The position numbers were made by a program, and so were the translations under genes. Source: Balanoglossus misakiensis (Eukaryota > Animalia > Hemichordata). From it: a DNA stretch of 64,000 nt. The stretch lies in NCBI GenBank assembly GCA_040954595.2, contig CM082596.2:529468-593467 (forward strand). The letters run 5' to 3'. This document shows positions 26,999 to 60,900 of the stretch, one piece after another. The notes beneath the pieces were generated by a model, which was not told the origin of the DNA, did no database searches, and saw only the letters and a list, made by a program, of their open reading frames with translations. Position 1 is the first letter of the stretch, and each line of letters starts with the position of its first letter.

Positions 26999-28294
26999 GA
27001 GCAACCACGACCCGGTGCTACTCCGCTCGCCATGTTAGCAGCTACGTGCAACAAGATAGGGAATAGAAGTCCACCGCCTCTGGCAGATGCAGCCATTGGC
27101 AAAGGTTTTCATCCTTGGAAGAAAACGACACCAAGTTTTTCCAATCCATCAAATATTGTCAATCCAAGACTGAGTGGTTTCTCTACAGAAAGCCCGCTGA
27201 CGTCCGGGATCTCGTCGTATTCTCTAGCTCAGTCGACAAACCCAATGACATCATATGCCAGCGATTTGTTCATTCCAAACGTTGCATCCCAGGTGAGGAG
27301 CACGCAGTCTGAACTGACGGGTCAGCCGGCGATTATACAAAAAGTACACGGCAGTATGTCGGAAGGGTACATGTCAAGCATGTACCAGAGAATGGGTGTA
27401 GGGCACCCGTATGAGCCAGCCGCTTGGTTCAAACCGACGCCGCACCACGGACTTTCCGGGGAGGTCGCTAACAGTGGTAGTACATGGTGGGACATGCATA
27501 CGCACACGCCATCGGCAGCCAACTGGCTGGACCCAGTTCAAAATGTGAGTACAACGTTACACTCACAACTTCCTAACTACAGCTGTTCGGACTATTCTCT
27601 GGCTGCACACCCAGCACTGTCTGGCAACCACGCAGCTCAGTTTCTGACCACTCCGCCACTTTTACAGGACAGTTTTAAAACCATGCTTCCGAGCCACTGT
27701 GATATGATGAGCATGCCTAATATGTCATCACCGCTGATGAGCCAACCGGGGCTGTCGGGACTCTCGGCCGCGTCGAGAGCAACGCGCCGCTACACGGGAA
27801 GAGCCACGTGCGACTGTCCCAATTGTCACGAAAACGAACGACTAGCAGCGGCAGGGAAAAGTATTCCCAAAAAGAACATTCACAGCTGCCATATTCCCGG
27901 ATGCGGGAAAGTTTATGGGAAAACATCTCATCTGAAAGCTCATCTAAGATGGCATACGGGAGAGAGACCGTTTGTTTGCAATTGGTTGTTTTGCGGGAAG
28001 CGATTCACCCGCTCGGACGAACTCCAACGGCATTTGCGCACACACACCGGGGAGAAACGTTTCGCTTGTCCCGTTTGCAACAAACGATTTATGCGTAGCG
28101 ACCACTTGAGCAAACACGTGAAGACTCACAACAGCGGCAGTTCAGGAAAGCGTAGCGGTAGCAGCAGCGGCAGTGACACGGAAAATAGTCAGAGCGGCCC
28201 GCCCAGCGTACCACCATCCACGCCCGGTAGCGTCTCCACACCAACGCCGGTACAGACCGAAGCGCAATCGAACTCAAAACCCATCATTCCTTAA
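26999..28294 (+). CDS. Sp6-9: Sp6-9 (Sp8/Sp9-like) zinc-finger transcription factor, exon 2 (full protein about 438 aa)
   Basis: Acceptor tttctttttgtag|GAG, in frame with ORF 27032-28294. Contains Sp box [14 protein letters not shown], clade motifs GFHPWK, HPYE..WFK and WWDM, Btd box ATCDCPNC, and three C2H2 fingers ([51 protein letters not shown]). Confidence 0.97.
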
Positions 28295-29237: not shown

Positions 29238-32200
29238 TTCAATTGTTTTTAAAACGCATATATTCTCTGAGATTGAATCCATTTTTGACACACCACCAAG
29301 TGGACCATCAGACATCTATTTCTTTCCTGACTGTTTCCATTACGATGCCTTCTTTCAGTTTTATCCACACATTAGAAGGATATAGTCTCTATCATTTGAT
29401 ACAATTATGGCAAAATTTGTATTAGACAACATTCGTTGCTGAATCATCAATTATAGCGCCACCCCAGCCTGTTTGAACATATAATATTGATGGCATAATT
29501 CCTATATACCAGACATTAAATTATTTGTACGTTATGGTTCCATAATAATGCAATATCGAAGTAAAAACTTCGTGTATTTTACTTTTTGTCATGTACAGTG
29601 AACTAACATTGATGTCAATGGTACATACCGATTTGTAGGTGTGATTGATTAATCGAACTTAAAGTTATAGTTTGTAGAACAATAAGAGCTACAGGTCGCG
29701 TAATAAGATTACTATAAAAAAGGAGCAATATTTTTCTTATTCGTGTTCTGATGTCTATCGATTTCTCGCGTATAGCTTCCGGTTTTACAAGATGGTTTAT
29801 TGACTGGATTAAATTTAGCTGACGATTCAGAAGACTAGATCATGTAACAACCAATGGTTCCTGACTCTGCAGATTCTTTGGTTTTAAGCAGTATGTTAAA
29901 ATGTAAAATAATGTTATAATATTTATTGAAATCGTCAACTTTAAAGTAAGTCCAAGAGTTAAATCTAGCACCTAGATATTATGTAACTATCAATAGAATC
30001 TACCCCGCCCAGTCCTACCTACCAACTTCATACAGGTACTTATTGTATGGACTCATGGGACAGCGGTTAGTGATTGCACTATTGTACACACAGAAAATAA
30101 AGGCGAAAATTACAAAGTAAGGGAAATTAGGTTTGTAGGCTTTAAAACCATTATTTCCATCGTGCCTCAACTTGTCGGTCATAAATATTGCTTGATTTCA
30201 ACTGAACTACTCTTAAAGCACGACCACTGTTCAATTAATGCGACAAAAACAGCATTATCGATCAGCGGTTTGGTGGTTCTACTTCTAGTTCTGGTAATTA
30301 ATGTTGTATTTCCTCGTAAAATGCCATCTCTGTGGATTTCAACGAAGTAGCGACAGATTGCAGTAAAGGTGGATCTGGGAATTTCACAAAATCTCCTTCA
30401 GAACCTTTCTCTCGACAAAGCATCACTGGTCGGGTGGGGTAGGTACTAACAACACAACGGCGAGGCATTTATGGTGTACTATTTGATAGCAAACCCTTGC
30501 GAACTAACTGACCAATTTATTAACAGTTTATGTTTGGGACCAACATTTTACTAATGCACAAGCCTGTCTGTAGGGACACGTGGGTACTGATGGGTTGTTT
30601 AAATTAACAGAGACAAGTAACACGACAAAGCGACGATCTGCGGTTGTGTTGGTGCGCTGTTCTGCACTCAACTCATGAGTTGGCCCTTTTCCACGTCAGA
30701 TGATTTCACTCAATTACATCGGGACACGGTTAGTCATAGCTCTCTTCATTAAAGCACTGAAGCTCACAAACTAGATCGATACTGAAACAGTATCGGTCAA
30801 AGGTATTGAATGTGTGTTTTAATAATATTGTTAATCGCTGCCTTCAAAGAACCGCCGAACGAACCTATCCAGACACTGAACGAGGCGTGGTTGTTGTCAA
30901 ATGACGCGAGATCCCGAAGATATTAACTCCCTGTTTGCCTATTATTACAACGCGCCAGTGTTATCGCGCCTATGTCACATCGCATTTGCGCAGCGGACAA
31001 TTATCTTGTCCTGGTCATCTACTTATAATCAGTGTTTCCGGAGATTATTTTGATATCATCTCTCACCTGACTTTTTATTGATTGAAGTGACATCGCGATG
31101 AGTTCTTTTCCTTCAGTTCTGAATCAGTTCTGAAGTGGCATGCAGCTGTAAACAGGCAATCGCTTTCTTGAAGTTCCACGATCTATCATGGTTACACTTT
31201 CACTTAACCTTCAGCTCATCCTAAGTGTATTTTTCCAGGCAATCTGTTGGGACAAGAGAAACAATTAATTGGACAAATAAACAACGCAACATGAATTTAA
31301 TTCTGTTAAAAGTCAATATCTAAGAACACTCGCACATTTATTTCAAATTTTACAAGACACGAGTCATTTTCTGTCAATAGAACATTACTAATACTGCCCA
31401 CACTTTGTTCGATATGTTTTATTTTTATATTTTGCCCATTTCTACATTTTAACCACGAATCGTCGACAAAATAGGATTGGAGGGGTCGCCGTCTCTCCGA
31501 AATGACGAAGTGACAATGAATGTACTGTGCCAGGGGCTGGTTTGTTTTGGTGACACCATAAATGCGACGTAAAATTTTCACATCAAGTTTAATTCTGAAT
31601 ACCGTGTTTTCATTTCGATTCATTTCCGACTTTTATGTTTTATTTAACTCATATGAGACAATAATGCGAGAAATTAAATTGATCACTCTCCGCTGTGTCG
31701 GTTTTTATAAAATTCCGACAGCTTTACAATTCAAACTCTGGTGAATATTGGGAGTATAAAACACACTCAATCTGTCATTGCTACTTTACGATCAGCTGTT
31801 GACTGAGGATGGAAATATTGACTGTGGCCCGTCAAACTAGCAGTCCTGTGCATTGTGTGAATATGGGTGGAAATTATTAGCCTTTGTTTTTATTGGACAT
31901 TTCTGATCTGTGATGAAACCGTCAATGCGTCATAATGATCCCAACACATGAAACAGGAAAAGTAGGAATGAAATTGCTGTGTTTCTTTGTCTCGTATTCA
32001 GTTTCTCTCTGGAGCCACGCAATTACTGTGAGTTATGCTGTCGCTATTTGGGAGAGATCATCGACTCCATTTAGAAGAAGCGAGCAAAACGAAGCGCGAC
32101 CTCGCGGCAGAGCAATTTGACCACACACTGGGAAAATTGACAGAACAATTTAGTAATCTGTCCATTACTTTGACCATTTCAGATAAGGTTACACAGTCAT

Positions 32201-38244: not shown

Positions 38245-41200
38245 TGTCTAGTGCACAAATCAATTATCTTAGTTATGTCAAACTTTTTGACGAGTGGAAA
38301 CATTAATGCCGATACAGTAAGTGAAATTACTCCCCAATGTTCAACATAAAATCTATAAATGTTTCGGGGTGTTCTTATTAAGCTCGTATAATAGGTGAGA
38401 TATTTTCCAATGGATGTAAGGAAGTATTCCCATGGACACAATTCTATTAAAGATAACTACTTGTTCGTCTTTATTTAGCTTCTTTCGTTAATTTGTTAAT
38501 TCCTAACTCGTTCTAAAGTTTGTAACGACAACGTGCGGCAAATCATGGCCTGGATCCACCAGACCATGCTTGATTGAATGTGAAAGACGACAAAATAACC
38601 GGTGTCAAAGGTCAAATAACAATGCACCATGATCTTCGACATTTGAAGATGAAGTATGTTTTTATAAATAGAACGGTGAGAATGGCCATAGCTCTAAGCT
38701 ATATTAGATAAACAACACAACGTAGCACTGACCATAGTACATTGTATACTGTAAACGAAGTAAGGTTCCTTTGAAAAAAAATCCATTTTATCCATTATTA
38801 TATTATCACAGGTTTGCAGTATATCGACAAAATAAATTTTAATTTTGAGCTGAAAAACTCGAGAAAAATGTCCGCAAAATCTGAATAAACAATTGAACTA
38901 TATACTAAACACACGTTTATTGTTATCTAAAACGATGCAATAATTATTTCACGCTTCGCAAATATTTTGTTACGTGTTACGTGATGCACAGTATCTGGTC
39001 AGTTTAGGACATGGGTCATGTGACACAGAATGCCCAAAGAACTACAATCACCTGATTTATGACCTGTTATACAGCAACAAGTAGAATTTAAGGCGGGAAA
39101 GTTTTCAGCCCTCAGGTGATAAGTTTATTGAAAGTCAACAGCTTGAAACGTCCTCGTGATATTTCATTATTTTTTAATCCAGGCCTACAATGGTACAAGG
39201 AGTTTCTGTCTTTATGGGCATCTCAATGCTGCCATTTTGCTCTCATCGGGACACGATTTTTCCCACGACAGAAGCTGACCCAGCTCATGACACAAGACCT
39301 GTGTTTGCTACTTTGATTGATTTCGGAAGAATTGACTTCTAACTTCTAACTAACGCGACGATGCCATTTCAAACTGAGGTGAAAAGTATGGAGCGAAAAA
39401 AGTGTTCAGATCACGATCGATCGTTGAGAATGAATCTGCCTTGATCGATAATAAAAACTACGAATAGCCATCAGCCCAGAGTCAGGACCGCCCAACAATT
39501 CTAAATCTTCCAAGTATGTTTAGTAAATCTTTCAAAGTGATGGACTTTTCGAGAGACGTGGAAAGACTGGGACACGAGGGGTAGAAATACTCACAGAAAC
39601 ACTAAAAAGTACTGAAAAATAGTGAAAAGGTTCAACTGAAGTCACTTTTTCGAATTATCTCTATTAACGTGAGTGAATCCGTGGCATTTCAAAATACGTT
39701 GAAATTCGTCCGGTTGAAATAGATCACATCTTGTACGAAATCGGAGCAAATGAACACGAAGGGGGCTTATAATCTATTCCTGTGACTTTTACAAACTTTA
39801 CTCAATGTTATTTGAAACAAGTTTCAACTGTAGGATCGAAGGATCTGTGGGAACTCGTTTGAAAGCAATGGGTGGGTGTAGACTGGCCATTTATTTTAGA
39901 TTCCATCGAATAAATTGGTACATTCATTGTACTTGCTGACAAGTGGGATATATGTAACCACGTGCTCCTAAACAATCTCCTGATTGACTTCATACAATTA
40001 CATGAAAACTGGTAGTGCAAAACCAGACTATCTGAGTAATATTAAAACAGCTTTAACGAAGAAAAGGGCGAACAAGGCTTGACTTTTCTGAAACGAGTCA
40101 AATCTTTTGGAAGAAACGATGTTGTGTGAGAACATGATTGCCGTTCAAAAGTGGTGATACTTCACCAACTGAAAAACTGATTCTCAAAAGAACAGAAGTT
40201 GTCCTGTTCAAAAAGACGGTAAGATTGCGTGATATAGAGACAGACTGTGTCACAGACAAAGGTGTCATCAGTAATCACAGCAGCATATGCATCATTTAAA
40301 AATTAATGTCAGATTTCATTTGATTTATATCATATCAATGACAAATGAGGTCGAAAGAAATTTCTTCTCGGTTCAATTTATTGTGTTTTAATTTCACTTG
40401 ATCGCCTGGACTACAATGACCGAATTGGGGTTAAAATTTGATCATTTGTGTTCGCCATTACTCAGAGACTATTAATTTACAATCTACTTTGTTGGCGCCA
40501 AATGCGAGCGCAGACAACGACCCTACCGCCCTTTCCCCCTGGGTGTATAGACGGTAGGTGATCGTGTTGGAAGAAACAAGTATTTGTACTTAATTAAAAA
40601 GGTTTTGTCATCGTGGGCATAAAAGTCAAAATCTCAAGTTGGCTATTGCCAAAATTCGGTGATAATAATAAGTGCAATAATGGAAGGGTGTCTCGCCCTC
40701 CTATGACTATCGAGTGAAGACTTAAGTACTTTTGAGAGTATTAAAAGAACAATTTTATTGGGAATCGAGAATTCTACTTGTAACCCCTTTCATTGAGGAT
40801 GATCTGTCTATGACAGACACAACGTCCAATTAACGGGAAATGTTTATTTTGTTCATTTTTCACGTCATATGAGTGAATACGGTTTCCTTATTGGCCGGTC
40901 ATCTTCTCAAGTGTATAAAGTGAAACGAAATATTTGAGAGGTTGTCTTTAACAAATCACAAGACAGATCACATTTCTCATTCGTAAAAAGCACTAAATGT
41001 TCAGCTCGGAAGTGTGAAAGGCCTACACCTACATTCCCATGGAAACACGGGTTTTTGGAAATTAACATTTAAACTCTTGAGATTTGAAGGGTTGGTGCAT
41101 TAAACGTATCTCAGATGGCCTTCTCCATCGAAATTTAGCAGAAATGTGAAGATGGGCAAGAGAAGTAAAGGGCAATTGCGAACCAAATACAAGGTAGACC

Positions 41201-43459
41201 CAACAGACGAATGCGAAAAACAAACGTACCCCGATATAAACGAAATGTCGCGTCGATTAGGGTTAGGGATTTCTGCCAACCATTTTAAGTTAATGACATT
41301 TATTAGACGTGCCGCTGCTAGTGGAGAAAACAAATTCCAACCACAACGCATGAGAGATCGCGGGAAAAAGACTAAGATTTATCGACACATGTTAATTTTA
41401 ATCAAGAAGAACGCTTGGCTGCAACTACACTTTATGGTTGTGTCTGGGGTTGGACTTAATTCTAAACTCATAGTGCGTGGCCATGTCTACATGCCTGAAA
41501 CAATAAAATTGCCAAATTAATCGCCTTTATTTTCGGATGATTTAATAATCCAATCAAGGCCATAATTTATCGAGAATGAATTTTTCCAGTCGTGGTTGCT
41601 AAATTGATGAAACAATCATCAATAGACGCGTTGACTTGGGATGGTCTGGATCATAAAATTGATGAGGTGTGAGCTGTCCCAAACCGCATATCAGATGACG
41701 AGAAGGGAAAATTTCATACGAAACTTATAAACGCTTGATTAAGTAGAATGAAATCATGTGTAACATTAGAAATTGACCACTTTACACATTTTCACTCCCA
41801 CTTTGAGTTGGACTATAATGATTTTGGCGCCGAAGTCTATTAAACTAGGCGTAGTGCCAATAAGTTGATGATATTTATGTATAAATCGAAAGGTTTTTTT
41901 CTTTATCTCTGTGGGGGTTTTCCTTATGCCACATCTTTTTGAAAAGGTTGCGTCATTTGAAACGATGTACCCATGTGCGTGTACATAGCATTCACATTGA
42001 AAGTAACCAGGGCATACAATATTTCGTTATTTAACCCTTTCCTGACAAATGTGTGGAATAACAACTACCGACACAAAGCTAGCATCGTCACAGAGATGGA
42101 AACGGAAGCTGAACATTTTACAAGTAACCAACCAACCAACCAACCAAAGTAACACTGCTGTTTACAGATTCATATCCACGACGCACAGATACTGCAAATT
42201 TGGAACTTGTGATGATCCAACTAAAACTGGTGCTGCCTGATTCACGTAATGACCGTCTAAACGGTCTCAAACTGTAAAACTTCTGCGTGGTGTACATATA
42301 TTATTTTTTAAACAAAATAAGTGAAAAAGAATGACCAAAGGGGACGCTCGTACTAGTAGACACACCTTCGGACATGCGATCGTAAGTTTTACGATACCGC
42401 CGTAGGAGGCGCTCAGCATACGACACGCGCAGTCCTCATTTGCATATTAAATGTCCATGTGTAGTGACGTACAGCGTGTACGCTCGAATGGCGGTGCTTT
42501 CAAATCTGACCGTGCGAAAACAGACCCCAAAACACGCATTTGAAGTATAAGTAGATAATTGTACACGTTCTGGTGGGTTAACCGCCCCAAAACACACGGT
42601 TTGGGAAGAATGTTGTAAACTACACGCGGTGGAAATACCTGTTGTCCGCTCGAACATGTGCACGCATATAGCGTATGCATGTAATAGCATAGGACGTACG
42701 CGTTCTGGAATATTTTACTGTTATATGATAATAATTTTACAAAAGCACTTACCAGCGTCGTCCCATGTACTGTCTGTTACATCATATTACCATGGAGGTA
42801 GCCCTGTACTTCGACCTTGGCCGCCAAAATCACAAAATCCGCCCAGTTCCGCCACGCGTCCACGGTATAGGTACACGCCCCCTTCCAAGCCATATGACGA
42901 GCGCCTCCAAGTGACGGAATATTTGCAGCCTGTCTTCTTTATCCAACCCCCTAACTCTCCAAGAAACGCCCATCTGTTTGTTACATGTATTTCACTTGCA
43001 CATTACACGCCACAAAAGATGTCAAACTGGCCTCTCTGTTTTCGCCAACAAACACCGATTTAACCCAATGGGTTCGGTTTCATGTATTTGTTTTTAATTG
43101 CATTCAAAATTATTCTCACAGGAGGCCACATGAACGTCGAGCATACCCAGAATTCCTCTACCCCAACCTATTCTAACTACTGAATTCTCACTGGCATTTT
43201 ACTGTTATAACGCGCAAATAAATCGACGTCGGATACTGCTTTTATAGTTTGCTTTCTTGCAAACCGACGGTATTGTTGGCTATGGGATGAATATAATCGT
43301 CGAATGTGATGACCTGGGATTTCTTTTTTTGGTTTTGTGGTGAGGCGTTTGCTTCTTCATCTCTCAGGGGGCAAGACAATCCTGGAAAACAGGCAGAGGT
43401 TGTGCAATACGTCATCACGTTAGTTTCTCACGTCGGCAAGATAAGAAGCGATCCCCAGA

Positions 43460-46400
43460 TGTCAATCATGCTTTCAGAAGGCATGTGAAAAGGAGCGCAT
43501 TTCACAGTGCCTTTTCAGATTGACCGAATCACAAGAAGCCGCCAGGACTGAAATTTGAATATGCAAATGACTCCTATCGTTGTATCAGAGCGCGTTTATC
43601 ACCCTTGCCGATCTCAAAGTGCGCCGCCCAAGCTAATGATTATATCAATAGATACGAGGCGCAAATAGACTCCAACAATAGTTGGTAGTGTCGTAGTGAG
43701 TAGGTGTTCGACGAGCTCTCAAAGGGGAGCGACATTTTACGGAGTCGATAAGAAGCAGCCCTGAAAAATCGACCTATTTCCAGAGTAACTCAAATGGATA
43801 GTAAACCGCCCACTAAACAGCGCAAAATAACACTTGGTTTTCTGAACGTCATTGGGACCAGGAATTATTACATGTCTGTTTCTCTGGTTACTAGTGCCAG
43901 TGACTGTCGAGATTTTGTGCAAATTGATCGATCATGTTACAGTTGGTTGATAATCTGGGCGGACAGTTCGGTTCTAAATGTTGAGACATGATAATCATAA
44001 GTTTTACCATCGGTTCATTGTGAATTGTTGGATGACGGGGAAAAACTCGCCAACTTCGTGACTAGCTTCATCTGACAGAAAACAAGATTTCAATCCAGTT
44101 GCCAGAAATGTCACAGTGACGGTTTCTTTGACGGGGTGGGGGATGGGTGGGGGCACAGTGACGGTTTGTTTGACGGGGTGGGGGATGGGTGGGTGATGGT
44201 ACCACCAAAGCCGACACAGACACGCCGCTCTCGTTGACACGTTCATTGTTCCCGGATATCAAAGCGCGCCGCCAAGTGTCAATCACCTCAGATAGAGACA
44301 TCGTTAGCAGGTTTGCCTTGTGAGTGTCACAGTTTGTCTGGAATTTATGTTCATTAGTTCACACACAGTGACAATAGATCCACGATTTTCTCGAAGCAAA
44401 AATTTAATGCTAGTATTTAAACTTATTACGTTTATTGAAACAAGACAAATTTTAGCAAAGTTCAAGGTATATAGGATCTATCTTCAATTCCATGAGTTGC
44501 CATGGTTTCAACCATAGGTTTCCGGAGCGACCCTAATCTAGCTTAGCATCAGGCGCCGATGCACAGGTCCATGGTCACATACGAGATTCTCCACACACCG
44601 TATCTCTTTTCCATTACTAGCGCGCCAGATGGAAAAGGCGATTAAGAAATACATAGTATTCGATGGTGGTTTGGTTTTATGGGATAACCCATGGATAACA
44701 ACGACCTGTGTTTGAAATGGCGAGGTGTATAAGTATTTGAACTGGCAATTACCTGTGTCAATAAAAGACAAGATGGAAATCTTAAGTAAACAAATGGATT
44801 ACTATATGCCCAAAGGTCCGTTGATAGTGGGTCATGTAATAGTGGTGGTTGAATTTTGCAATAATGAATTCGACTAAAAATACATCCAAAGCAATAATGA
44901 CACATTGTAAGGGTGTTCAAACACATATTGTAATTATACACAGAGCAAGAACCTGTTGTGGCCTCGAAATATTGTATTGGATTTTTTTTATTGGTAATTT
45001 TACGTTATCTATCTCTCGCGGCAAGGATCACAATCGCTGTATGAAGGAACCCCAATGCGAAGACCCAGGTTTTCGTTCGTTTGGCAGTGATCAGATGAAA
45101 CGACGCCGCCACAGTTGAAAATTGAATATTCAGCCATAATGGAGAGGTTGCGTTGGTGTGTGTTTATCGCCTCTGCCGATCTCAAAGTACACCGCCCAAT
45201 AATTATAGAGATGAACCCTGTAGGTAAATGCTATGCAACAATGGTAGAAACAGCGTTCTCTCACCGAGGGAGCACGGATTTTATAATCACGTGCTAGCAA
45301 AAATACCGAAAGTGGCACACATATTTCAAAGGGCACATCTCACCCTTGAAGAATTGAAATATGAAGTAAACTTATTCGTTAAAAATAGTGGCCTAATGGT
45401 AATTTTATTTTGTTTTAAAATACCTATGCTTTGTGCATGTATAATTACAATCCAAATACCCGAACCATTCGTTGCCTGTATCCCAAATTGCAATGCAACT
45501 CCAGACCACCTACGATGATTGAAATACGCCGCCATACGCGCCGGGAAATTGAAACGCTGTGATACGCGCTGTTCCGTTCCATATCCTTCGCTTCTCTTTC
45601 GGGATAAAATATTCGGGCACTCTTTCATTACGCTATATGTGATTTTATCGTGTAGTTATAAATAGAAAGAAACTGATTGTGTTCGTATGTGTATAGGTAT
45701 ACGTTTCTTGTGTTGTAGGGGAGAGATACGTACATGAAAATCACCGTTGTCAAGGAATAGTTCGAATGTAGCGATGTGGTCTACAATGGAAAACTGGGTG
45801 CCGGGAAACCCAGTCTGGTTACCTGTCAATCATTATGTTCATTTGTTTAGAAGGTTGGGTGTGGGCCGGAAAGTTTGTCTCGGCAAGCTAAGATCTGAGG
45901 AAGCCGACTAAACCGGCCACATGCATATGTAACGCGCGGTAGTATGTTTATCTCGTTAAGCCAACATCAAAGCGAACCGCTTAGTGTCAATCACCATACT
46001 TAATAGTATGTGTAAATGGTTGAACGCATTCAGCCAATTTGCCAGCCAGTTGTGTACAACAGTTTGTCTGAAATATATGCACATTAGCTAACACTTCAAG
46101 ACATTCATGTCTACAAAAGTTTCAAACTTCGACCTTCCAACAACGCTTTGCAGTAATCAATATTAAAAATGTCACAATTTCCGGGATATATTTCTACACG
46201 ATTGCACAATTCTGACGACTAGCAAAACTGTGTACGTCCCCCTTACAAGATAGTAAATCATTATTGGGTAAAATTGACGGAAATGAAGGACATTCCCGCC
46301 CCTGACAGTTACGTCAGATATTGAAACCGACGTCCTTATCGTATCACAAGGTAGAACACTGGGTCTGAATGTTAATGCACAGGCCCTGGATACCAGGGTC

Positions 46401-47351
46401 TTGGGTTTTAGTCAGGCCTGGGTTTAGTGTAACTATAGAAATGAGAACTGAACGAAAATGTCACCGTATTGTCGCTAGTGTTATTTAATATAAACAAAAC
46501 ATATCACATTTCAATTCAATTCACACGAAAAACAGTCTGACCTGACCAAGGAGAATTTTATAATGTACATAGATAGTATTCGGAAATTTGATTAAGTATT
46601 ACTTGAAGGAATAGTCTTTTCCCCGAGCATTTCTACGGCTAGAGCTATAGCCTTCCAGACCCCCTATGGAAAACCAGACATACAGTTTTCCTGGGTGTCA
46701 GACCTTAGCTGTGTTGGGTGATTATCACCGAAGGAAGTGTCCCAGTCGGCAGGGCACAAAGGTCAACGCTATCTGTCAATCAAGGATTACCAGTGTTTGT
46801 GAGGTTGGACGGAGGTTGGTGTGAATCTTTCATCAATGGAACATCAAGGCGAGCCGCCAATTCTACCTATTCATGCCCTTTAATGCTGGACATTCACGCG
46901 CTATACATGCGTCCCATTGAGCGCGGACTCAAAGATCACCGCCCCAATGTCTATCAAACAACTGATAAACCCGAAGAGTAAATGGCGTGTCTGTTACCGA
47001 TCTCAGAGATGGCTGCCAATAGAAACCACAGAAAACACACACAAGATTCATGTCCCCAGTTGCATTATCACATCACAGAAACAGACTGTGACGTTTGTAT
47101 GTCAGTTTCGGGGACAGTATACATGTATATACATTGTATATTAATTAAAAGTGAATCGTTCGTGTATATACTCCAAAAAATAAAATAATCGGCAAAACTC
47201 CTTGGACTTGTCGGTGAATTTTTGCCGTGTTTCTGCTTCTGTCGGCTTACACCAAGCGCGCCACCACAGTTGTTGGGTATTTGCATATTTTAACACTCCT
47301 TGAGTATAATTGCAATCGGCGAACATCAGAAGAAATCTCCGATGTCAATCA
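43460..47351 (+). promoter_or_regulatory. Putative Wnt-responsive Sp5 enhancer cluster (TCF + helper + PBX/MEIS-type motifs)
   Basis: Six TCF-like heptamers each followed by 3 nt and RCCGCY, plus six same-strand TGTCAATCA nonamers (details in findings). Confidence 0.6.
44112..44193 (+). repeat. Tandem duplication of a 42-bp G-rich unit
   Basis: CACAGTGACGGTTT(C/G)TTTGACGGGGTGGGGGATGGGTGGG twice, one mismatch. Confidence 0.92.
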
Positions 47352-49069
47352 AACTATGCTGCCAAAAGACGGCAAGGGCTTCGACCTACACGTGCAGCAC
47401 AAACATACCTTCCCCCGATAGAAAACAACGATTGTAAGCCATATATTATATCTCCGACAACTGCGCGCTATCAAAACGCAATAAATTCTACCCACACTTA
47501 ACACATAATAAAAACGTCACCCTCTGCAATATCAAACACGAAAACCCTCATAATTGCACGAAAATTGGTTAATAGCCGTTGGGGAGGAGTCCTTGGACCA
47601 AATAGTATTGAGATCATAATTGCCACAAACCTGTGACATGTTAATCACTGACAACTGTAAATTCTGCTTGTATTTACCACAGCCGCTCTGGTTTTAGAGT
47701 TGGTGAGATGATTTACTTCCATGGTGAGATCTATGCTTGATGCGTAAAAGGCGGTTGCTCACAAAAAAGCCTCTATACCAATTGAACTTTTGACCTCCCT
47801 TTCCCATTTGCCGACGAGATAAACACAAATCTCGCGATCAGTTGCGGCGGAAGTGAAAAGAGCAGCAAATAAAAATATTTTCCTCGGGGCGATTAAAATG
47901 CGTTCAACTGAAATTTGAAGATCTGTTGAGATTGTCCGTTCAAACGAGAGACAGTCGGCGTTCATACCAGGTTGATGATTTATGGAGAAAATGGTTTCTA
48001 TGGAGAGCTTGAGAAGGAATGACCACAACTTCATCATCTGTCGCACGGTGGTTGTTCCGTTTGACTGACATTATTTGAATAGCAACGTCACTGCCATTTG
48101 AAGTCTGACAATTGGGAGGAGAACGGGCGGGGACGACACGACCAACCAACCTCCGGCAATATCTGAGACCCGTTGTCGTAAACAAAACACAATTTATATA
48201 AAAGCGTCCGTGATTCAAACTAAACTAACACTGTAAGCATGGTTAAAGATAGCCAGTGGCTTTGCTGCAATAATGCGGGTCTGAAACATGGGAAATTATG
48301 CGATCGACTGGTAATGATAGACTACGCAGTCGCTTCGTGTGTGTTCGACCACAAAGCGGTACTTTGTGTACACCCCACTGCTTTGCCGTCGCTACAATGA
48401 TACACTATGAATTATCATATGTATATTTCAAATGTATATTTCAGAAATAAAGATTGCTTCCCTGAAAGAGAGAAACATACATGTTCGGTCTGTTTTTCTG
48501 TAATCTATGGTTAATGGACTTTTGTGGAGATACACTGTTGACAACACAGTGCCCTTTAAATAGTGGATAACATCGCAAAACCCTTACAGATGTGTATTAA
48601 ATTGCAGTTTCTGATACGATGTCCAACAACCCACAAAGCTGTCAGGGAGATCGGCTCCGACAAAGTCGTCTCTTGCTCAAGCGTTTTTTCTTTCTGTCAC
48701 TGTTCAGCAGATGCTGTGTGTTTGTTCAGCTCCTGACTGTATTAGTCCATTGTTGGATCACGCATTATGGCATCCACTTTTATCCCTCTGTAGTCTGCCG
48801 ACAAAGTACGTATTGAAACAGTATTCCTGGCAAAACCCTGCCGAGCGAGTAAAAAAAATAACATTCTCTGGTCTGTGGTTATCAGGCCGTTCCCCGTACG
48901 CAACACCGCCTTTCGCAGTGGCTCGACAGCGAAACAGAGATGAGCACCGGCTTTGGTGTAAGTTTGCCTTCGGGCGACTATAAATCATCAACGGACGAGA
49001 GTTCAAACACACGCGAGTAGGGCAAGCCTTTGCCACTCGTTGGAGTATTCAAGTTACCAGCGGCTCCCC

Positions 49070-49560
49070 TTGGTGGGCGGCGAACTTTTATCTCTTTGTC
49101 AATAGGGATATAGTGAGAGAGAAATTAGCCTTCAGTGAACTACCATAGCACGGAACAATAACATGCAGCATCGCCTTATCTCTTAATCGAGTCCCTTGTC
49201 AAAATTAGCCAATCAGGATTGAGGAATGTCGGCTAGACTCCTCTGATGCCGTGAATCCAATTTGCAAAGTGTATAGAAGTGGCACCCGGCGATTAGTTCA
49301 TTAAGTTGCCCGCCTTTTGTCCCGCCTTGCCCAGCCCACGTAATAATCGCTTCTATTATACGTGTCAACAAACACACAGCAGGCCCTTTGTCAGCACAAA
49401 AGATTCAATTTCCTTTCAAATCACCCGCTAGTTTGCGTTAATTGGCTAGCGGCAGAGATGAGAGGCAGCCTACTGGTTGCTGATTGGCCGGCGGTGCTTC
49501 AAAGCAACCCGTTTGTCTCTGAAGTGTTACCGCCTATTCACACTTTCAGTGTACAAATTG
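49070..49560 (+). promoter_or_regulatory. Putative Sp5 proximal promoter
   Basis: GC boxes (GGGCGG about 49075; CCCGCC twice at 49309-49326), CCAAT boxes (about 49209, 49441, 49483) and TCF-like sites (CTTTGTC; TTCAAAG 49498-49504) just upstream of exon 1. Confidence 0.6.
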
Positions 49561-49718
49561 GACAGCTCTGGGAGGAGAACTGGCATAACTACCCTACCCA
49601 CACTCGTGTTCACAACACTGTACTACACTCAGTGCCAAAGGCTAGGTTCCAACGTCCCACCGATCAACCAAAGCAGTATTTCTGCCGTGGAAAATTTATT
49701 GCCAACACATCGATCATT

Positions 49719-49769
49719 ATGGCCAGGCAAGGAGCTGCCATTACATTACCAAACTCACAGTTCATTCAG
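49719..49769 (+). CDS. Sp5: Sp5/buttonhead coding exon 1, MARQGAAITLPNSQFIQ
   Basis: 17 codons ending FIQ followed by donor CAG|gtacgt. This resembles the human SP5 first coding segment (MAAVAVLRNDSLQAFLQ). Its phase 0 fits the acceptor at 49997. Confidence 0.8.
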
Positions 49770-49997
49770 GTACGTACTGATCCAGAGTCGCACAGCAGTG
49801 CAACTGAGTTCCCAGTTAATGTCCACCGTTTATCGTTCTAAACCACAATTTCTCTTATTTAGCGAGAACCAAAACCCAGGATCTGTTGAGTGAGTTAGAT
49901 ATTTTACGACTGTTAAGTGTACTTTGGTGTTTCAATCACTAGACTCGTAATTCTCTTCAATACAAATCTGACCGTATTTTTTTTATCTCTATTACAG

Positions 49998-51143
49998 CAC
50001 CCAGCACCAAGTTCAACCGATCTGAACAAACCGAGTCCGCTGGCTCTGTTGGCCGCAACTTGCAGTCGCATTGGTCAACCCGAATTGGCCCCACAACAAC
50101 CACCCCAACCACAACCCCAGCAGCAACGGGCGCAACCGTCTCCGGTCCCGGTACAGACAAGCGCACCAATGGTTACCGTCACACCAGCCCTTCCCGAGCA
50201 GAGAGGGATCTTCCATCCGTGGAGTTCAACACCAAGTCCCGTGGCTCCAACTACCACTATGTTCCCCTCCGCCCACAGTCCAATCGCTGCTTCTATGGCT
50301 CCGATTCCTCACGTCATCAACCACCATCATCATCTATCACCAACGCCCGGTACAACTATGCTACCCGGACATCTCGCTGTCTCCGTGCCTGCCGCGCCGT
50401 GTTCGCATGAGTTGCCTCCAACTCCACCAGCAGAACCGATCTACGCTTCTGGTTTTCCCTTCGAACTGAACACTAGTCCAGTTAAGTTTCTGTCACACAG
50501 CGGTGTGTGTTCCAGTGCGTTCACCAGTCCGATCGTGTCCGCGGCTCACTTCGCCCATGCACACCAGCCTGTCCCGCAGCATAGACCCGTCTTCGAGGAC
50601 GCCAGTCGTATTCCGTGGTGGAGCGTGGAATCTCAGAAGTCCCACCCATCTCTGACTCCCGCCGTTTCGCCTACCAGTTTCTGTGTCCAGCCCGTTGTCT
50701 ACGGTTCTTCACCGGCCTATCCGTTACCACTCGGTGGTATGGTGTCAGCTCGTCCTTCCATCGCTTCAGCTCGTCGTTGCAGAAGATGTCGTTGTCCAAA
50801 CTGCGTCAACGCTTCCAACACGAACAACCCCAACAAGAAGAAACAGCACATCTGCCACATCCCCGGCTGCGGTAAAGTCTACGGCAAGACGTCCCACCTC
50901 AAGGCGCATCTCCGTTGGCACACCGGCGAAAGACCGTTCGTCTGCAACTGGTTGTTCTGCGGCAAGAGCTTCACGCGTTCCGATGAGTTGCAGCGTCACC
51001 TCCGCACTCACACCGGCGAGAAGCGTTTCGTCTGCTCCGATTGCGGCAAGAGATTCATGCGAAGCGACCACTTATCCAAGCACGTGAAGACACACAGCAC
51101 CAAGAAGACGAAATCCAGCGACAAGCCAGAGGAGTCACAGTGA
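49998..51143 (+). CDS. Sp5: Sp5/buttonhead zinc-finger transcription factor, exon 2 (full protein about 398 aa)
   Basis: Acceptor tctctattacag|CAC. Contains Sp box [14 protein letters not shown], Sp5-diagnostic [11 protein letters not shown]...SPVK and IPWWS, Btd box [11 protein letters not shown], and three C2H2 fingers starting [18 protein letters not shown] with [12 protein letters not shown]. Confidence 0.96.
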
Positions 51144-54916: not shown

Positions 54917-57900
54917 CTGGAATGGCATAATAATAACGTTTGTATGAAATAAGAGACCACAGATTTTTATTGTTTGAACCAGTGTGTTGCTAGGTTACAA
55001 AAAGTCTCTACATGTCAACAATGGTTTAAAAATACAAATTGTTACCAATGGGAAATGTTGACTAATCACATCAAGGACTTCCCTATTGGCCGAGCTTTGA
55101 GTTCAAATTCATGATGGGTGTATGAGGGCGCTAGACTTATGGAAAGGCTGTAACCAGTATACATTAATGTTAATGACACAAACAAGTAGCACTACAACAT
55201 GACAAAACATTACCATGGTTTCAATAGATTACATTTTTAGCTCACTTCACTGTTTATAGCTTTACCATGTAACTTGATAACAACAGCACAGCATTATTTT
55301 GCAATAAGCATTATACAATCATGGTTCCACAACACAAACTGGGATCTAATACCAGTGACATTTCCACATTGAGTCAAGTGGCAGAACATTATCAATTTTT
55401 AAATTCAGTAAACAAAAGTAAACAGTTTCAATTACTCTTGTCTGAACATGAAATAAAGGAAGCGATTAACCTCTTACTATCAGAGAAAGTGTTTATTTGA
55501 TCACTTCAGTTCAAGAAACTCCAAACTGTTCTGACATTGGCCATTCAAAGTTACAACTCTTGACTTCCCTGCCTATTATGAACATTACAGATAACTATGG
55601 AATATCATTTTGTGAATCTCTTCAAGTTGCAAGTTACCTTCATATATAAACGACGTCCCATGGGTTCAAACTTGGATGCAAGATGAGGGGCGGAAATGAT
55701 TTGGGTGTTAGTAGAAAGCAATGTTTGGTGGGAAATGTTCATGCAAAAGAAAAACTCCAAGGCAAGTCATTCATATTCAATGGATTTACAGCGTGTCATG
55801 GGAAAGAAAAGAAAAAATTAAGGCCTTTGTGTGCTGAACACATTTTATTTCACCTTTCCATGCACTGAGTGGACAAATTAACCTATATATTTTGAGTTTC
55901 AATTCTCTATCGTTACCTGTTTGGTGGTGTGTGGTCTGCATTAAGTGATGGCGCCCTCTCAGGTACAGCGTGATGGTTTATTTCTGCCTGGATTTCAATC
56001 TGTCTCATGTAACCAATCTGAAGCCAAAACAAAGGCAATATTATATGGCTTAATGAAAGGAATTCAAAACGTCTCCAAAAATTAGATGGTACTTGTTCAG
56101 AAAGCAAAATACATGCAAAACAAATATGGCAACATGTAACTGATACAAAAAAGTAAAGGAATATTTACCTCATCTTTCTCTTCTGATAATGACCTGGATG
56201 TTTCACTATGGAAACCAAAACCATGAAGATCCCCATCAGATGAAACATCAGAAACTACACTAGTTGGTCTAGCATATTTCTCAAATCTATTTGGTCTGTG
56301 AAAGTTAATGAGAACAGAATTAGTTGAACAAGCTCACTGTTGGCTGTACTGGATTGCATCACAAAACAAAACAAACTGACTTGAAAGTAGATGTCATAAT
56401 TCTGAACCAAGATGAAAAGAAGCTGGCCAATTTTCTTGTAACACACTCGCCTTTCTTCCTTCTTTCGAGATGATTTCTTTGCCAGATCAACACGTGCGTA
56501 CACATGATCTTCTGATTTTGTCAGATTACTTGATTTAGAAGGAGTAGGATTGCTGGATGTATCAATGGATCCAATCTCAGCATAGCCATGATTAAGTATT
56601 TCATTTTGGTATTCTGAATTTTCACTTATTTCTGACACAATACTGGAATAGTACTGACTGTCACCGCTTGATGTCAACTCCTTCAATTCTCTGTTGGAAA
56701 TGGAAACACAACATGACATGAAGAATGATGGGACAACATTACAACATAAAGCATGCAACACACGTTTCATGTAGACATTACACCACATTATAAAGATGAG
56801 ATGGCATGGTATATACATGACAGTTCATGGGAATAACATCACATGATAATGTGTGATTTTACTTTACTTTCAGGAGATTTCTTGGTGCAAACATACCCAG
56901 GAAAATATGGAATTTATACCTCCACATTGTTCTATAACTATAAGTTGGTGAAAGCACTCCATGGAAAATGATAGGGTTAGTCCACATCGTGGTAGCACAA
57001 GATAGAAATACACACCCTCTATCTCTTGCAGATCTTCTCAAGATCTCACTACTTCTCTCACTGCCATTACTTGACACTGTATCCTGCAACGAATTCTGGG
57101 ATGTCATCAACCCTGGCTTGGCGTCAATGTCTCCTGTAATACTCTCATAGTACGCTGCATCTTGTAGAGAGAATGGCATCTTGATCAGATCTGCCTTCTG
57201 CATATGTCTCCGTCTTTGCTCCGATAATCCCACGCTGTTTTGTTGAACTGGTGGAGTCGTTGGGATGGATTCTGAGTAGGAAACGTCCGGATATACCGGA
57301 GAGTTGATCTCGAATAGTTGTTCATGGAATTCTTGTCCATAATTTTTTACCTGTATAGAAATAAAACAAAGAACTTATATCCATATACTGTAGTACACCT
57401 GGGATCTAAATGACATCTGTACAATTGTTTACCACTGTCGATTTTATGGCTGTTTGTATCAGTGATATACTATGAAGAGGAGAGTAAAGATACTCTCAGT
57501 TTCATACCTGTTGTAAGAAGTATATGGTTCTTGTTTCCTGTTGTGATCTGTAGAGTTGTATCTGTTGGTAGAGAGATTTTTTCTTCCACATTCGGAACCA
57601 TCTCTGCAGTAACATACTGGCATCCCATTTCTTGCTGTCCATCTTTGCTTTGATGACCTTGTATTGCTGTCTTGCTAAGAATCCTCTCACAGCTAGGGAG
57701 TCACAAAAACATACTTTGTGTCATTAAACAATAAAGTTGTCATTAAACAATGAAGTAAGCCAAGTTTATGATGATTTGTAATTTTGGTATGAATTGATTA
57801 TTTCTGAGATATACTGACTTAGCTTTCTTCATTCAAATTTGCTTTGAATGTTATGGTGTTGTGTGGTTGCCAAAGCAAGTTTCCAATCTTATATTGAACT

Positions 57901-60900
57901 TGAACATTACTCTGTAAAGATGCAAAGTTGCTTGCATACAGCTTCTTGTATTTGTATGAGTGTTCATAATAACAGATGCAGAGTTAAAATCTAAATATAT
58001 CTACCGGTACTCATAAGTGCCATGAACAAATATAAATCAAAATTAAAAGCTCATACTAAATAGATCTATCAAGATACAAAGTTTACAATGACAAGATAAA
58101 ACACAAAATCATATTGTACATGTAAAATAATATCTATTTGGAATACTGAACACAAACCAAGCTCTACTATAACAGTCATACAGTAGGAAAATGACGAACA
58201 TGTACTAAAATTAAATGCACATAGGATTGGCTGGGGTGTATTCACTATTACAGAATGCATTTTGAAAATAAAATAAGCTTTTTTAGTACAGAAATTGGCA
58301 GAAATGTTTCACTGCCACCATGCCAAAGACAGAAACAAAAGTATTAGTTTTTAAACCTGACTGCAATAGCAGCAACTGTTCTTCTTTGACATTCAATGTC
58401 TGGAAAGATTTCTCCACTTTCTCAACATCCATGACAACAGAGCCGTCTGTGACATCACTCTCAGTAATGGCTGCCTCTATAGCGTCTGTTACCATAGCAG
58501 CAGCTTCACTGGGAGTTGATGGAAACCTCTGGATTTCTGAACCTAGCATTGTCATCTCTGAATCTTCTTCCATATTATCTGTGAAGCTGACCTCACTTGC
58601 TTTTGAACTGCCATTTTTTCGGTCATGTGTCTCGCTGTCATGCTCTGCCATTTGCGACTGAGACATGGCTGAATGTTCATCATTTTCAACTTCTATCATT
58701 TCAATGTTTGTGTTTCCAGCTGATTCACCATTAGACTCTGTCAAATTACCGGTTTCCATAGAAACATTCCCACTTGATTGCATTCCTTCTTCAGCAAGGT
58801 CATTCACTTCTTCAAGGCACAGACCTTCAGAGATAGTATTTTCACAATGATCGCACGGAGTTTCATCACTGTTTGTTTGTTGTTGTGTCTCTTCTACGCT
58901 GTTGACCTGTGAACTCTCTGACAAATGATCTTTTGAGATTATAATCACATTTTTTGTCGCACAATGATTTGACTTATTTGGTTCTTTTGAATGTACACCA
59001 AGATAGCTCTCTAATTCATGCATAAGATTTCGTCGAACTGTTTTGTTTATGCCTGACTTGTGATCAGTAACATTTCCATCAGACTCAGATGCATCTAACT
59101 GTCGCTGAATCTTGCTCTGTGAATTATCACTTGTCTTCTTGTATCCAATCAGTTCAACTTTATCAGAAAACGCCAGAACTTTCATTTTCCTCTTTTTGGA
59201 ATCTTTTCGTTCCTTTTTCTCAAAGGACAGTTTCATAATCCTTTTTCCTACCTCTAATGCAGTTATCACACATTCGAACATATTCACATCATTCAACATT
59301 CAAATTAAATAATTTAAAGTAAGTTTACAGAACATAAGAGGGCAGCAGAGACAGAAAAGAGAAAGCAAGGAAAACTATTAAGATTTGTTTCATATTTACT
59401 AAAGACACTCCTGAAAATGATAATCACACTAAAAATTCACGCACAAATAACAAAAAGTCTTCCACTACAGTTTCAAAAGAAGTACAGAACACTACTTCAA
59501 ACATACTTGAAACAAAAATATCAAATAAAATGTAATCATTCTGAAGATGAAACACTAGCAATAACACTCCTGCACAAATAAAAAAAACATCTCTCTGATA
59601 AAACACAGTCTAAGTGGAAATGAGTTTTGCAGAAAAAAACAACAAGCCTAAAATAAAGTGTCTAATGCACTCAACTTCAAACTATCAAACCATGCAATCC
59701 TATTTATTTTGACCTTATGGTAGGAATCTACTGAACGATCATTTAATGGAAAAAAATTCTGGTATTGTTTTATTCTGTACTTATCCAAGAATTTCTTCTC
59801 TGATAGGGTGGGTAACTTTGTGCCTCACTCACTACTATCAAAAGAATCCATTTTATAATAGGGGTGGAGGAACTCACCTGATTGGGCAACAACTATTTTT
59901 CTGATACTCTGTCTGTGTTTGAGCTCCCTAGCTTTGCGTACTTTAAATCCTCTCCAGTTTTTCTGGATGATGTTGGCAGCTTTGTGACTTTCAACAACTT
60001 GTTGGCTGTATTTCTTTCTTGCCTGGAAACCTCTAAAAGCTGGAAATGATAGAATTCAAAATGATTATTTTCCCCAAATATAAGAATACTACAACACATT
60101 TTCACCTTGTCTTTTCTACAAACTCTGAAATGACTTCGTTAGTGAAACCCAAAAAGTGTAATTGCCAAGTACCACACACAAAACATGCAGTGATAAATCA
60201 TTTAAGTGATAAGATCTGTTTTCTGTCATTGTCTGCAACTTACCATGTTGGATCTTCATAGAGGCCTCTTGACGACTTACACACGCTTTCTTATAACGCA
60301 TCCTGGCTGACCAACCCTTGAAATCTGTTAAATTTTAGGGCATAACATGCAATGGCATGCAAAATTGTAACACATACAATCAGAAAAATCATGCAATATT
60401 AATCATAAACACATATTAATTCATCACTTCAGTTTTAAAATTTCTGATATGCAGACAACTAGCATGGCGTTGCAGTTAATTCTTGGTGCAAATCATCAAC
60501 ACATTATCCAGTGTCTGATACCAGGCAGCTGATCGTACCCAGGGTGCTTGTTACAAATGGTAGTATCTGTGATTTTTGAAACGATACCTATTGCAGCAGA
60601 AGCAAATATTTGTTTGACTTACTTTTCTGAATAATTATTGCACTTTTCCTTCTCTTCATTAAAAGTCTCTTGTATTTGACCCGATCCAGCCAGGCTCTGA
60701 TTCTTGCTTGAATCACAATCGCCACCTTGTGATATCCTTCGAGAAGTCTGTCCAGTTTCTCAACGTGGTAGTACTTCAAGAAGACCTGAAAATAACGAGC
60801 ACTACAAATTCAAGATTTGATGGGGACATTGGACTTGCATGTGCAATTTGTTTGTCTCATGTATTACTGGTATATTGTTCATACATGGCTGTATATTGTG

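What the first reader, a model, noticed from the sequence alone, without database searches (positions are those of the whole stretch)
43460..47351. Six co-oriented TGTCAATCA (PBX-MEIS/PREP) sites, forming a tripartite TCF-helper-TALE module
Seen: TGTCAATCA (reverse complement TGATTGACA) occurs at 43460, 44277, 45824, 45985, 46774 and 47343, all on the same strand within 3.9 kb. A rough base-composition estimate gives well under one copy by chance. Three copies sit exactly 12 nt after a CAAAG site, with a helper-like word between: ATCAAAG cgc GCCGCC aag TGTCAATCA (44258), ATCAAAG cga ACCGCT tag TGTCAATCA (45966) and CACAAAG gtc AACGCT atc TGTCAATCA (46755). A variant, TGTCTATCA, follows the 46928 copy at 13 nt. 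Established: TGATTGACAG is the PBX-MEIS/PREP heterodimer site. Inference: a composite element integrating Wnt/TCF with TALE cofactors at fixed helical phasing. I know of no description of this arrangement.
Basis: partly seen in the sequence, partly recalled or inferred. Interest (0 to 1): 0.8.

Follow-up and report, generated by a model that had tools for sequence, protein, structure and literature searches.

The report
Duplicated Wnt-response enhancers upstream of Sp5
Six copies of a nine-letter motif and seven evenly spaced motif pairs cluster just upstream of the Sp5 gene of a likely acorn worm, in blocks that were likely copied locally; they likely act as Wnt-responsive switches read by TCF, likely with help from PBX-MEIS/PREP proteins, which is a known kind of control at a classic Wnt target gene, and a rigid three-factor unit is not shown.

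Summary
TGTCAATCA occurs six times on one strand in 43460-47351, the densest 9-mer cluster of the window; 0 of 60 simulations reach six. The strongest signal is TCF site + 3 nt + helper: 7 copies near Sp5, 0 in the other 57 kb, an 'Akimbo-2' pair of a class known from fly. The region holds old direct duplications (43408-43688 with 45001-45247; 44258-44405 with 45966-46122), so the two clean tripartite copies are paralogues, which largely explains co-orientation and the 12-nt spacing. The third copy has a poor helper; three of six nonamers have no TCF site at 12 nt; only two are full PBX-MEIS/PREP decamers. PBX-LEF1 cooperation is published, with flexible distance. Best reading: a likely Wnt-responsive Sp5 enhancer array with likely TALE input, expanded by duplication. 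Fixed helical phasing is not shown. No relative's upstream DNA was reachable, so conservation is untested. The scan's notes hold no look-alike on other DNA.

The parts
43408..43688 (+). Block A: nonamer 43460-43468, lone helper-like word 43538, octamer-like word near 43560, TCF-helper pair 43613-43628
   Evidence: aligns to block A' with score 105.5 against shuffles 22.6 +/- 3.3 (0 of 200)
45001..45247 (+). Block A': likely duplicate of A; TCF-helper pair 45181-45196 kept, nonamer decayed
   Evidence: 68% over 122 nt, E 5e-10; nonamer 6 of 9 identical
44258..44405 (+). Block B: clean tripartite unit 44258-44285 (TCF site, 3 nt, helper, 3 nt, nonamer 44277-44285) plus a second conserved stretch 44329-44364
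   Evidence: aligns to B' with score 78.5 against 22.6 +/- 3.6 (0 of 200)
45966..46122 (+). Block B': likely duplicate of B; tripartite unit 45966-45993 kept with the same spacers (nonamer 45985-45993)
   Evidence: TCF site 8 of 8, nonamer 9 of 9, helper 4 of 6, other positions 81 of 125
45823..45832 (-). Full PBX-MEIS/PREP decamer, no TCF site at 12 nt
46755..46782 (+). Weak third tripartite-like unit: weak TCF word, two-mismatch helper, full decamer at 46773-46782
   Evidence: below 9 bits on the pair matrix; flank likeness to B' p=0.023 uncorrected
46843..46858 (+). TCF-like word + 3 nt + helper, no nonamer after it
46928..46956 (+). TCF-helper pair 46928-46943 followed at 13 nt by a one-mismatch nonamer (46948-46956); resembles block A'
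   Evidence: (score 35.5 against 20.0, 0 of 200)
47316..47368 (+). Nonamer 47343-47351 in a stretch resembling 43433-43480 (possible further duplicate)
   Evidence: 42 against 17.8; flanks only: p=0.005, 1 of 15 pairs, uncorrected
49059..49091 (-). Two tandem TCF-like + 3 nt + helper pairs on the opposite strand, about 0.65 kb before the ATG; the second was not in the training set
   Evidence: held-out score 17.1; best other held-out hit 12.6
49200..49420 (+). Sp5 proximal promoter matching the segment conserved from human to coral (CCAAT boxes, GC boxes, Fox-type word)
   Evidence: one search compared by eye with the acorn-worm and human rows of the Frith and Ni 2023 supplement (text extraction scrambled)
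49719..49769 (+). Sp5 first coding exon (17 codons, GT donor at 49770)
   Evidence: its last residues match the N-termini of P0001 and P0002
49998..51143 (+). Sp5 second coding exon (SP box, buttonhead box, three C2H2 fingers)
   Evidence: best hits Glandiceps Sp5-like 60%, Saccoglossus buttonhead-like 55%, then vertebrate Sp5

Best explanation
The cluster lies 2.4-6.3 kb upstream of an Sp5 gene and is likely an array of Wnt-responsive enhancer modules, likely expanded by old local duplication, in which TCF would bind an HMG site and a helper site together and PBX-MEIS/PREP dimers would likely bind the nonamer as flexible co-inputs. Shown: the motifs, their spacing, the gene identity, and pairwise similarity of blocks A/A' and B/B' in collinear order at offsets of about 1.6-1.7 kb with unalignable DNA between. 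Inferred: (1) one TCF molecule contacts both sites of each pair through its HMG box and C-clamp, the helper making up for mostly imperfect HMG sites; (2) with beta-catenin this switches Sp5 on in Wnt-high cells; (3) TALE dimers open or license the modules, as at mouse Msgn1 and at zebrafish DECA sites, without needing one fixed distance; (4) co-orientation and the repeated 12-nt spacing are mostly inherited from the duplicated ancestor, with the motifs retained by selection while the spacer DNA drifted.
For: Gene: Sp5; Sp5 is Wnt-activated in Hydra and sea urchin and helper-dependent in human (passages). Pairs: 7 of 10 Akimbo-type matches with gaps 0-15 in 43000-49800 have gap 3; 0 at gap 3 in the other 57.2 kb; simulations give mean 0.2, max 1 per 64 kb in 60 runs; a held-out eighth pair at 49076-49091. 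Orientation equals Archbold's AK probes; AK0-6 pairs are among the most enriched in TCF-bound fly chromatin. Duplication; spacers not alignable (23 against 27.3; 32 against 30.1); helper words 9 on + and 0 on -, nonamers 6 and 0. Retention: TCF sites 16 of 16 identical across the two duplicate pairs against about 75% of other aligned positions. Not a young repeat: contig depth over the cluster 60-65, like 64 on the Sp5 exon; no blastn match of the region to the rest of the window. Duplication signatures are reported in 18% of fly and 34% of mouse shadow-enhancer sets (abstract).
Against: No binding, chromatin, expression or reporter data for this species; Sp5 expression is stated to be uncharacterised in hemichordates. 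No orthologous upstream DNA was reachable. The pair pattern was defined after seeing the sites. Only 2 of 7 pairs have a perfect WTCAAAG, and WTCAAAG alone is not enriched (3 seen, 2.25 expected). AK2 itself was not among the spacings assayed in the passages read; AK6 and FF0 bind best. 4 of 6 nonamers lack the last G of the decamer. Allelic differences avoid the motifs (0 of 64 in 143 of 4727 bases) but not significantly (expected 1.9, P=0.14), and the duplicated blocks as a whole are not depleted (17 in 829 bases against 31 in 2361). A C-clamp in this species' TCF was not checked; it rests on the statement that non-vertebrate TCFs carry it (abstract of PMC4267635).
Confidence: 0.62

Rival explanations
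1. Rigid tripartite element: TCF and a PBX-MEIS/PREP dimer bind one 26-bp unit cooperatively, the MEIS/PREP half-site 3 nt from the helper, and the spacing itself is selected.
For: B and B' kept all three motifs and both 3-nt spacers without an indel while DNA between blocks became unalignable. A third CAAAG lies exactly 12 nt before a nonamer; the chance that any of the four other nonamers has one there is about 0.011. A near copy lies at 13 nt. I found no paper describing this unit in searches.
Against: B and B' count as one origin. The third unit has a poor helper and weak TCF site and may be a further paralogue (p=0.023). 5 of 7 strict pairs lack the exact nonamer at 12 nt and 3 of 6 nonamers lack a TCF site there. 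No spacing one helical turn away in gaps 0-30. In mouse the PBX-LEF1 distance is flexible.
Confidence: 0.15
2. The TCF-helper array is functional, but the nonamer is read by another factor or serves repression: a Onecut/HNF6-type protein, or the TALE repressor TGIF (both consensus sites recalled, not from a call), limiting where Wnt can switch Sp5 on.
For: The tenth base of the decamer is G in only 2 of 6 copies (T in 2, C in 2); the alternative decamer core TGAGTGACA is absent (0 in the window); the MEIS hexamer alone is not enriched (4 seen, 2.95 expected).
Against: The word is an exact 9-of-10 match to the Pbx:Prep DECA motif; ordinary Onecut words are not enriched (6 seen, 7.2 expected).
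Confidence: 0.15
3. A non-functional relic: an old tandem duplication or decayed repeat multiplied a few chance words that have no regulatory role.
For: Duplication is evident and explains co-orientation; the polymorphism test is not significant and the blocks overall are not depleted of differences; one nonamer has decayed.
Against: Similarity is confined to motif-rich islands while the DNA between is unalignable; the same TCF-helper spacing recurs twice on the opposite strand near the promoter with unrelated flanks; the motifs are those expected for this gene; single-copy depth.
Confidence: 0.08

Closest known systems
Bipartite TCF HMG-Helper Wnt response modules, Akimbo orientation (Archbold et al. 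2014, PMC4154663; sections 7, passages and Table S1 rows seen)
   Same: Same two motifs in the same orientation as the AK probes; spacing 2 by their count, inside the AK0-6 range enriched in TCF-bound chromatin.
   Different: Fly modules vary in spacing and AK6/FF0 bind best; here 7-8 pairs all use one spacing, mostly with imperfect HMG sites.
C-clamp/helper-dependent human SP5 promoter (Hoverter et al. 2014, PMC4267635; passages seen) and Wnt-responsive Hydra Sp5 promoter (Vogg et al. 2019, PMC6338789; passages seen)
   Same: Same gene, clustered TCF sites upstream, helper dependence in human.
   Different: Those are proximal promoters; no TALE sites or duplicated modules are mentioned in the passages read; Hoverter found no genome-wide spacing rule.
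TALE/HOX-WNT integrated code at mouse Msgn1 (Mariani et al. 2021, PMC8390530; passages and section 10 seen)
   Same: PBX complexes and TCF/LEF on the same Wnt-responsive elements; PBX needed for LEF1 recruitment.
   Different: There the key site is PBX/HOX-1, the partner LEF1 lacks a C-clamp, distance is flexible, and the code is described as eutherian; here the site is DECA-like, next to a helper, in a hemichordate.
Pbx:Prep DECA sites in zebrafish blastulae (Ladam et al. 2018, PMC6023610; passages seen)
   Same: TGATTGACAG motif; proposed to prime chromatin rather than act as an enhancer alone.
   Different: Partner there is NF-Y; CCAAT is not enriched in this region (10 seen, 10.1 expected); only 2 of 6 sites here are full decamers.
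Shadow enhancers born by duplication (Ness et al. 2026 preprint, PMC13345019; abstract and outline seen)
   Same: Detectable similarity between neighbouring modules of one gene.
   Different: Enhancer activity of these modules is untested.

Membership tests
TCF HMG-Helper Wnt response module | HMG site close to a helper site (RCCGCC) in one of the four orientations | tested here: met
   7 pairs, Akimbo orientation, spacer 2; 2 of 7 HMG sites perfect, 5 with mismatches
TCF HMG-Helper Wnt response module | Pairs clustered beyond chance near a Wnt target gene | tested here: met
   7 near Sp5, 0 in the other 57.2 kb, max 1 in 60 simulations; pattern defined after seeing the sites; one held-out pair
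TCF HMG-Helper Wnt response module | The organism's TCF has a C-clamp | not tested
   TCF gene not in the window, no genome held; general statement for non-vertebrate TCFs only
TCF HMG-Helper Wnt response module | TCF occupancy and Wnt-dependent activity lost on mutating either site | not testable with these tools
   needs ChIP, EMSA and reporters
PBX-MEIS/PREP DECA site | Adjacent PBX and MEIS/PREP half-sites, TGATTGACAG | tested here: inconclusive
   9 of 10 letters in all six, 10 of 10 in two
PBX-MEIS/PREP DECA site | Neighbouring NF-Y CCAAT boxes as in zebrafish | tested here: not met
   CCAAT 10 seen, 10.1 expected in 43300-47500
PBX-MEIS/PREP DECA site | Occupancy by a PBX-MEIS or PBX-PREP dimer | not testable with these tools
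   needs binding data
Rigid composite element with helical phasing | Same spacing in several independently arisen copies | tested here: inconclusive
   two clean copies are paralogues; the third is degenerate and of uncertain origin
Rigid composite element with helical phasing | Spacings recurring one helical turn apart | tested here: not met
   only 12 nt (3) and 13 nt (1, one mismatch) among gaps 0-30 in the same orientation
Rigid composite element with helical phasing | Conservation of the unit in relatives or at other Wnt targets | not testable with these tools
   no genome held; no relative among the runs; metagenome scan gave 3 isolated hits, none near an Sp gene
Transposon or dispersed repeat | Many copies elsewhere, terminal repeats or transposase | tested here: not met
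   single-copy contig depth, no match to the rest of the window, no convincing inverted termini, no Pfam family in 4 of 4 frames tested within 42.5-47 kb; an old, diverged element cannot be excluded
Shadow enhancers by duplication | Sequence similarity between neighbouring modules | tested here: met
Shadow enhancers by duplication | Overlapping expression driven by each module | not testable with these tools
   needs reporters

The most novel reading that the evidence does not exclude
TCF's C-clamp and a PBX-MEIS/PREP dimer sit side by side on a rigid 26-bp unit (HMG site, 3 nt, helper, 3 nt, TALE site) that is a selected deuterostome Wnt-TALE composite element; its repeated duplication upstream of Sp5 raised Wnt input in this lineage, perhaps offsetting a decayed copy of the human-to-coral Wnt response element in the Sp5 promoter.
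Probability: 0.15. Interest if true: 0.62.

Novelty: new variant of a known kind. Interest (0 to 1): 0.33.

Why it matters
How TCF picks its targets in a tissue-specific way is an open question, and described TCF-helper pairs and PBX-LEF1 pairs are flexible in spacing. This locus gives a compact, naturally replicated test set at a universal Wnt target: seven or eight pairs at one spacing, with and without an adjacent TALE-type site, in a phylum where Sp5 regulation is undescribed. If the tripartite unit proved rigid it would be a new composite element and would push TALE-Wnt integration back to the deuterostome ancestor. As it stands it is a well-marked candidate enhancer of an expected type in one species, untested and without cross-species support.

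Tried and rejected
Whole genome: none held, so no genome-wide spaced-motif count at Axin, Notum or Nkd. Sequencing runs: 3 listed, one sample and one study, probably the source; no RNA holder listed. Allelic-difference test: underpowered, P=0.14; it used 64 of the 79 distinct places shown (40 of 141 and 40 of 48 places were shown; 15 places outside the seven long X1 contigs were dropped). Metagenome scan for the full tripartite pattern: 3 single hits; L001 overlaps long open frames, L002 lies inside one, L003 is non-coding DNA with one copy, no cluster and no flank similarity to the window; read as uninformative. Rfam: 0 matches in 42000-50000. Pfam: 0 families in 13 of 13 longer non-Sp frames and in the frame at 41107-41517. 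Tandem Repeats Finder: only a 42-nt two-copy repeat and short arrays, none holding the motifs. A plain 7-mer diagonal count showed only weak peaks at the duplication offsets (1.55 against about 1), so the duplication rests on the local alignments. Pairing of 45824 with 46774 was suggestive by free local alignment (3 of 200) but not by the anchored flank test (p=0.14): left open. [quoted passage not shown] The sea-urchin Sp5 footprint figure (PMC10765061, Fig. S2A) was not seen and may bear on conservation. The hemichordate ATAC-seq paper (PMC11618098) has 0 occurrences of Sp5, Pbx, Meis or Wnt in its main text; its supplements were not searched. Scan notes: no look-alike windows, one unrelated TCF-helper cluster, three unrelated notes in this genome. 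Complex prediction was not run: no TCF or TALE protein of this species was in hand and DNA cannot be given as a chain.
Full report
Observation. Shuffles give 1.36 per window and none of 100 reaches 8. To allow for the word having been picked out after the fact, I ranked all non-low-complexity 9-mers by copies in any 4 kb: this one is first with 6, the next have 4, and in 60 order-4 Markov simulations no 9-mer reached 6. Three copies lie 12 nt after CAAAG and a one-mismatch variant lies 13 nt after a fourth.

Context. The frame at 49917-51143 encodes an Sp-family zinc-finger protein. Its first 290 residues hit Glandiceps talaboti Sp5-like (60%) and Saccoglossus buttonhead-like (55%) best, then vertebrate Sp5, so the window is likely from an enteropneust hemichordate. 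A 17-codon first exon at 49719-49769 ends like the N-termini of those two proteins. The stretch 49200-49420 matches by eye the acorn-worm and human rows of the Sp5 promoter that Frith and Ni report as conserved from human to coral (PMC10735318; passages; supplement part 8, text scrambled by extraction). The nonamer cluster is therefore 2.4-6.3 kb upstream of the Sp5 start codon. No other gene was detected between it and a second Sp gene at 26999-28294 (frames tested, not an annotation). Sp5 is Wnt-activated in Hydra (PMC6338789, passages) and sea urchin (PMC10765061, passages), and the human SP5 promoter depends on C-clamp/helper contacts (PMC4267635, passages; PMC4999783, passages). One search also states that Sp5 expression is uncharacterised in hemichordates.

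The stronger signal is the TCF-helper pair. CAARG followed after exactly 3 nt by RCCGCY occurs six times on + (43615, 44260, 45183, 45968, 46845, 46930) and once on - (49072). Of 10 such matches with gaps 0-15 in 43000-49800, 7 have gap 3; the other 57.2 kb has 3 matches, none at gap 3; simulations give 0.2 per window, maximum 1 of 60 runs. The pattern was defined after seeing the sites, but a matrix trained on the seven finds an eighth, directly in tandem with the 49072 pair, as its best new hit (17.1 bits; next 12.6). By the probes in Table S1 of Archbold et al. (PMC4154663) this is the Akimbo orientation with a 2-bp spacer. AK6 and FF0 bind best in vitro (section 7), but AK0-6 pairs are among the most enriched in TCF-bound chromatin and AK1 worked as well as the native pair in one enhancer. 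Most HMG sites here are imperfect, and WTCAAAG alone is not enriched; the helper would compensate (inference).

The copies are not independent. Self-comparison shows 43521-43640 matching 45088-45206 (68% over 122 nt, E 5e-10) and two pieces of 44258-44364 matching 45966-46094 (E 5e-4 and 0.004). Local alignment extends these to blocks A/A' (105.5 against shuffles of 22.6 +/- 3.3) and B/B' (78.5 against 22.6 +/- 3.6), 0 of 200 shuffles each, while the DNA between them does not align (23 against 27.3; 32 against 30.1) (intervals chosen). Order A, B, A', B' at offsets of about 1.6-1.7 kb suggests an old direct duplication, with weaker pieces in 46.7-47.4 kb. With the motif itself excluded, flank similarity links nonamers 44277/45985 (p=0.003) and 43460/47343 (p=0.005), more weakly 43460/45985 (0.010) and 45985/46774 (0.023), among 15 pairs, uncorrected. 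The strand bias (nonamer 6:0, RCCGCC 9:0) is what direct duplication gives. So the two clean tripartite units are one origin. Within the aligned blocks the TCF sites are 16 of 16 identical, the B nonamer 9 of 9, helpers 9 of 12, other positions 234 of 313 aligned (383 in all); the A nonamer has decayed in A' (6 of 9). Islands of similarity around motifs point to selection, but short separate duplications or gene conversion are not excluded.

How good is the tripartite claim? Of seven strict pairs, two (B, B') carry the exact nonamer at 12 nt and one a one-mismatch form at 13 nt. The unit at 46755 has a weak TCF word and a two-mismatch helper and falls below 9 bits; still, the chance of a CAAAG exactly 12 nt before any of the four other nonamers is about 0.011, so it is either a further paralogue or modest evidence for a preferred distance. 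Three nonamers have no TCF site at that distance. No spacing a helical turn away occurs. The nonamer matches 9 of 10 letters of the Pbx:Prep DECA motif (PMC6023610, passages); the last G is present in 2 of 6. PBX-MEIS/PREP remains the best match; Onecut and TGIF are rivals from recall. In mouse mesoderm PBX complexes are needed to recruit LEF1, and the distance between them is described as flexible (PMC8390530, passages and section 10). Searches returned no paper whose title or abstract opening describes a fixed HMG-helper-DECA unit; I saw listings only, and the library lacks most subscription papers.

Tests that did not decide. No genome is held. The three runs are one sample, probably the source. 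Their contigs show single-copy depth over the cluster (60-65, like 64 on the Sp5 exon), which argues against a young repeat, and the region has no blastn match elsewhere in the window. Of 64 allelic differences on the long X1 contigs, none falls in 143 motif bases out of 4727 (expected 1.9, P=0.14), and the duplicated blocks as a whole are not depleted (17 in 829 against 31 in 2361). A metagenome scan for the full unit gave three isolated hits, none near an Sp gene. Conservation in other hemichordates is untested.

Mechanism and verdict. Most likely (0.62) this is an array of Wnt-responsive Sp5 enhancer modules: TCF bound through HMG box and C-clamp at Akimbo-2 pairs, TALE dimers as flexible co-inputs that open or license the modules, and copy number raised by local duplication, a route reported for shadow enhancers (PMC13345019, abstract). 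Sequence arrangement and gene identity are shown; binding and activity are inferred. A rigid ternary element is possible (0.15), another reader of the nonamer (0.15) and a neutral relic (0.08) remain.

Noticed in passing
window 49241-49261: At the place of the Wnt response element that is conserved in Sp5 promoters (CTTTGAT, 6 nt before the AATCCAAT word in the human row), this species reads CTCTGAT; the X1 contig differs only at the base before it (49240). The ancient site may have weakened here while TCF-helper pairs multiplied upstream.
   Followed up: partly
window 49059-49091 (- strand): Two tandem TCF-like + 3 nt + helper pairs about 0.65 kb before the Sp5 start codon, on the strand opposite to the upstream array and with unrelated flanks.
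   Followed up: partly
window 26999-28294, 49719-51143, 55000-64000: Two Sp-family genes in tandem on + (the first likely Sp6-9, name from recall) followed by a myosin gene on - (Myosin_head; class III and the vertebrate Sp5-Myo3b linkage are recalled, not tested).
   Followed up: partly
window 43538-43568, 45105-45132, 47259-47288: A second shared module: a helper-like GC word followed about 15 nt later by an AT-rich or octamer-like word (POU-type site) in blocks A and A' and weakly near 47260.
   Followed up: no
window 44329-44364 and 46059-46094: A 36-nt stretch 83% identical between B and B', 45-65 nt after the tripartite unit, not explained by TCF or TALE motifs; probably another binding-site block.
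   Followed up: no
window 45176: A 4-nt insertion allele in run X2 just before the TCF site of block A'; the site itself is unchanged.
   Followed up: no
window 44112-44193: A recent 42-nt two-copy tandem repeat (97% match) with G-rich runs between blocks A and B.
   Followed up: no
window 30845-30856: A lone TCF site with a helper 1 nt after CAAAG, 2.5 kb downstream of the first Sp gene.
   Followed up: no
L003 1144-1169: A single exact match to the full tripartite pattern, with the full decamer, in non-coding DNA without long frames; no cluster, no flank similarity, no neighbouring gene seen.
   Followed up: partly
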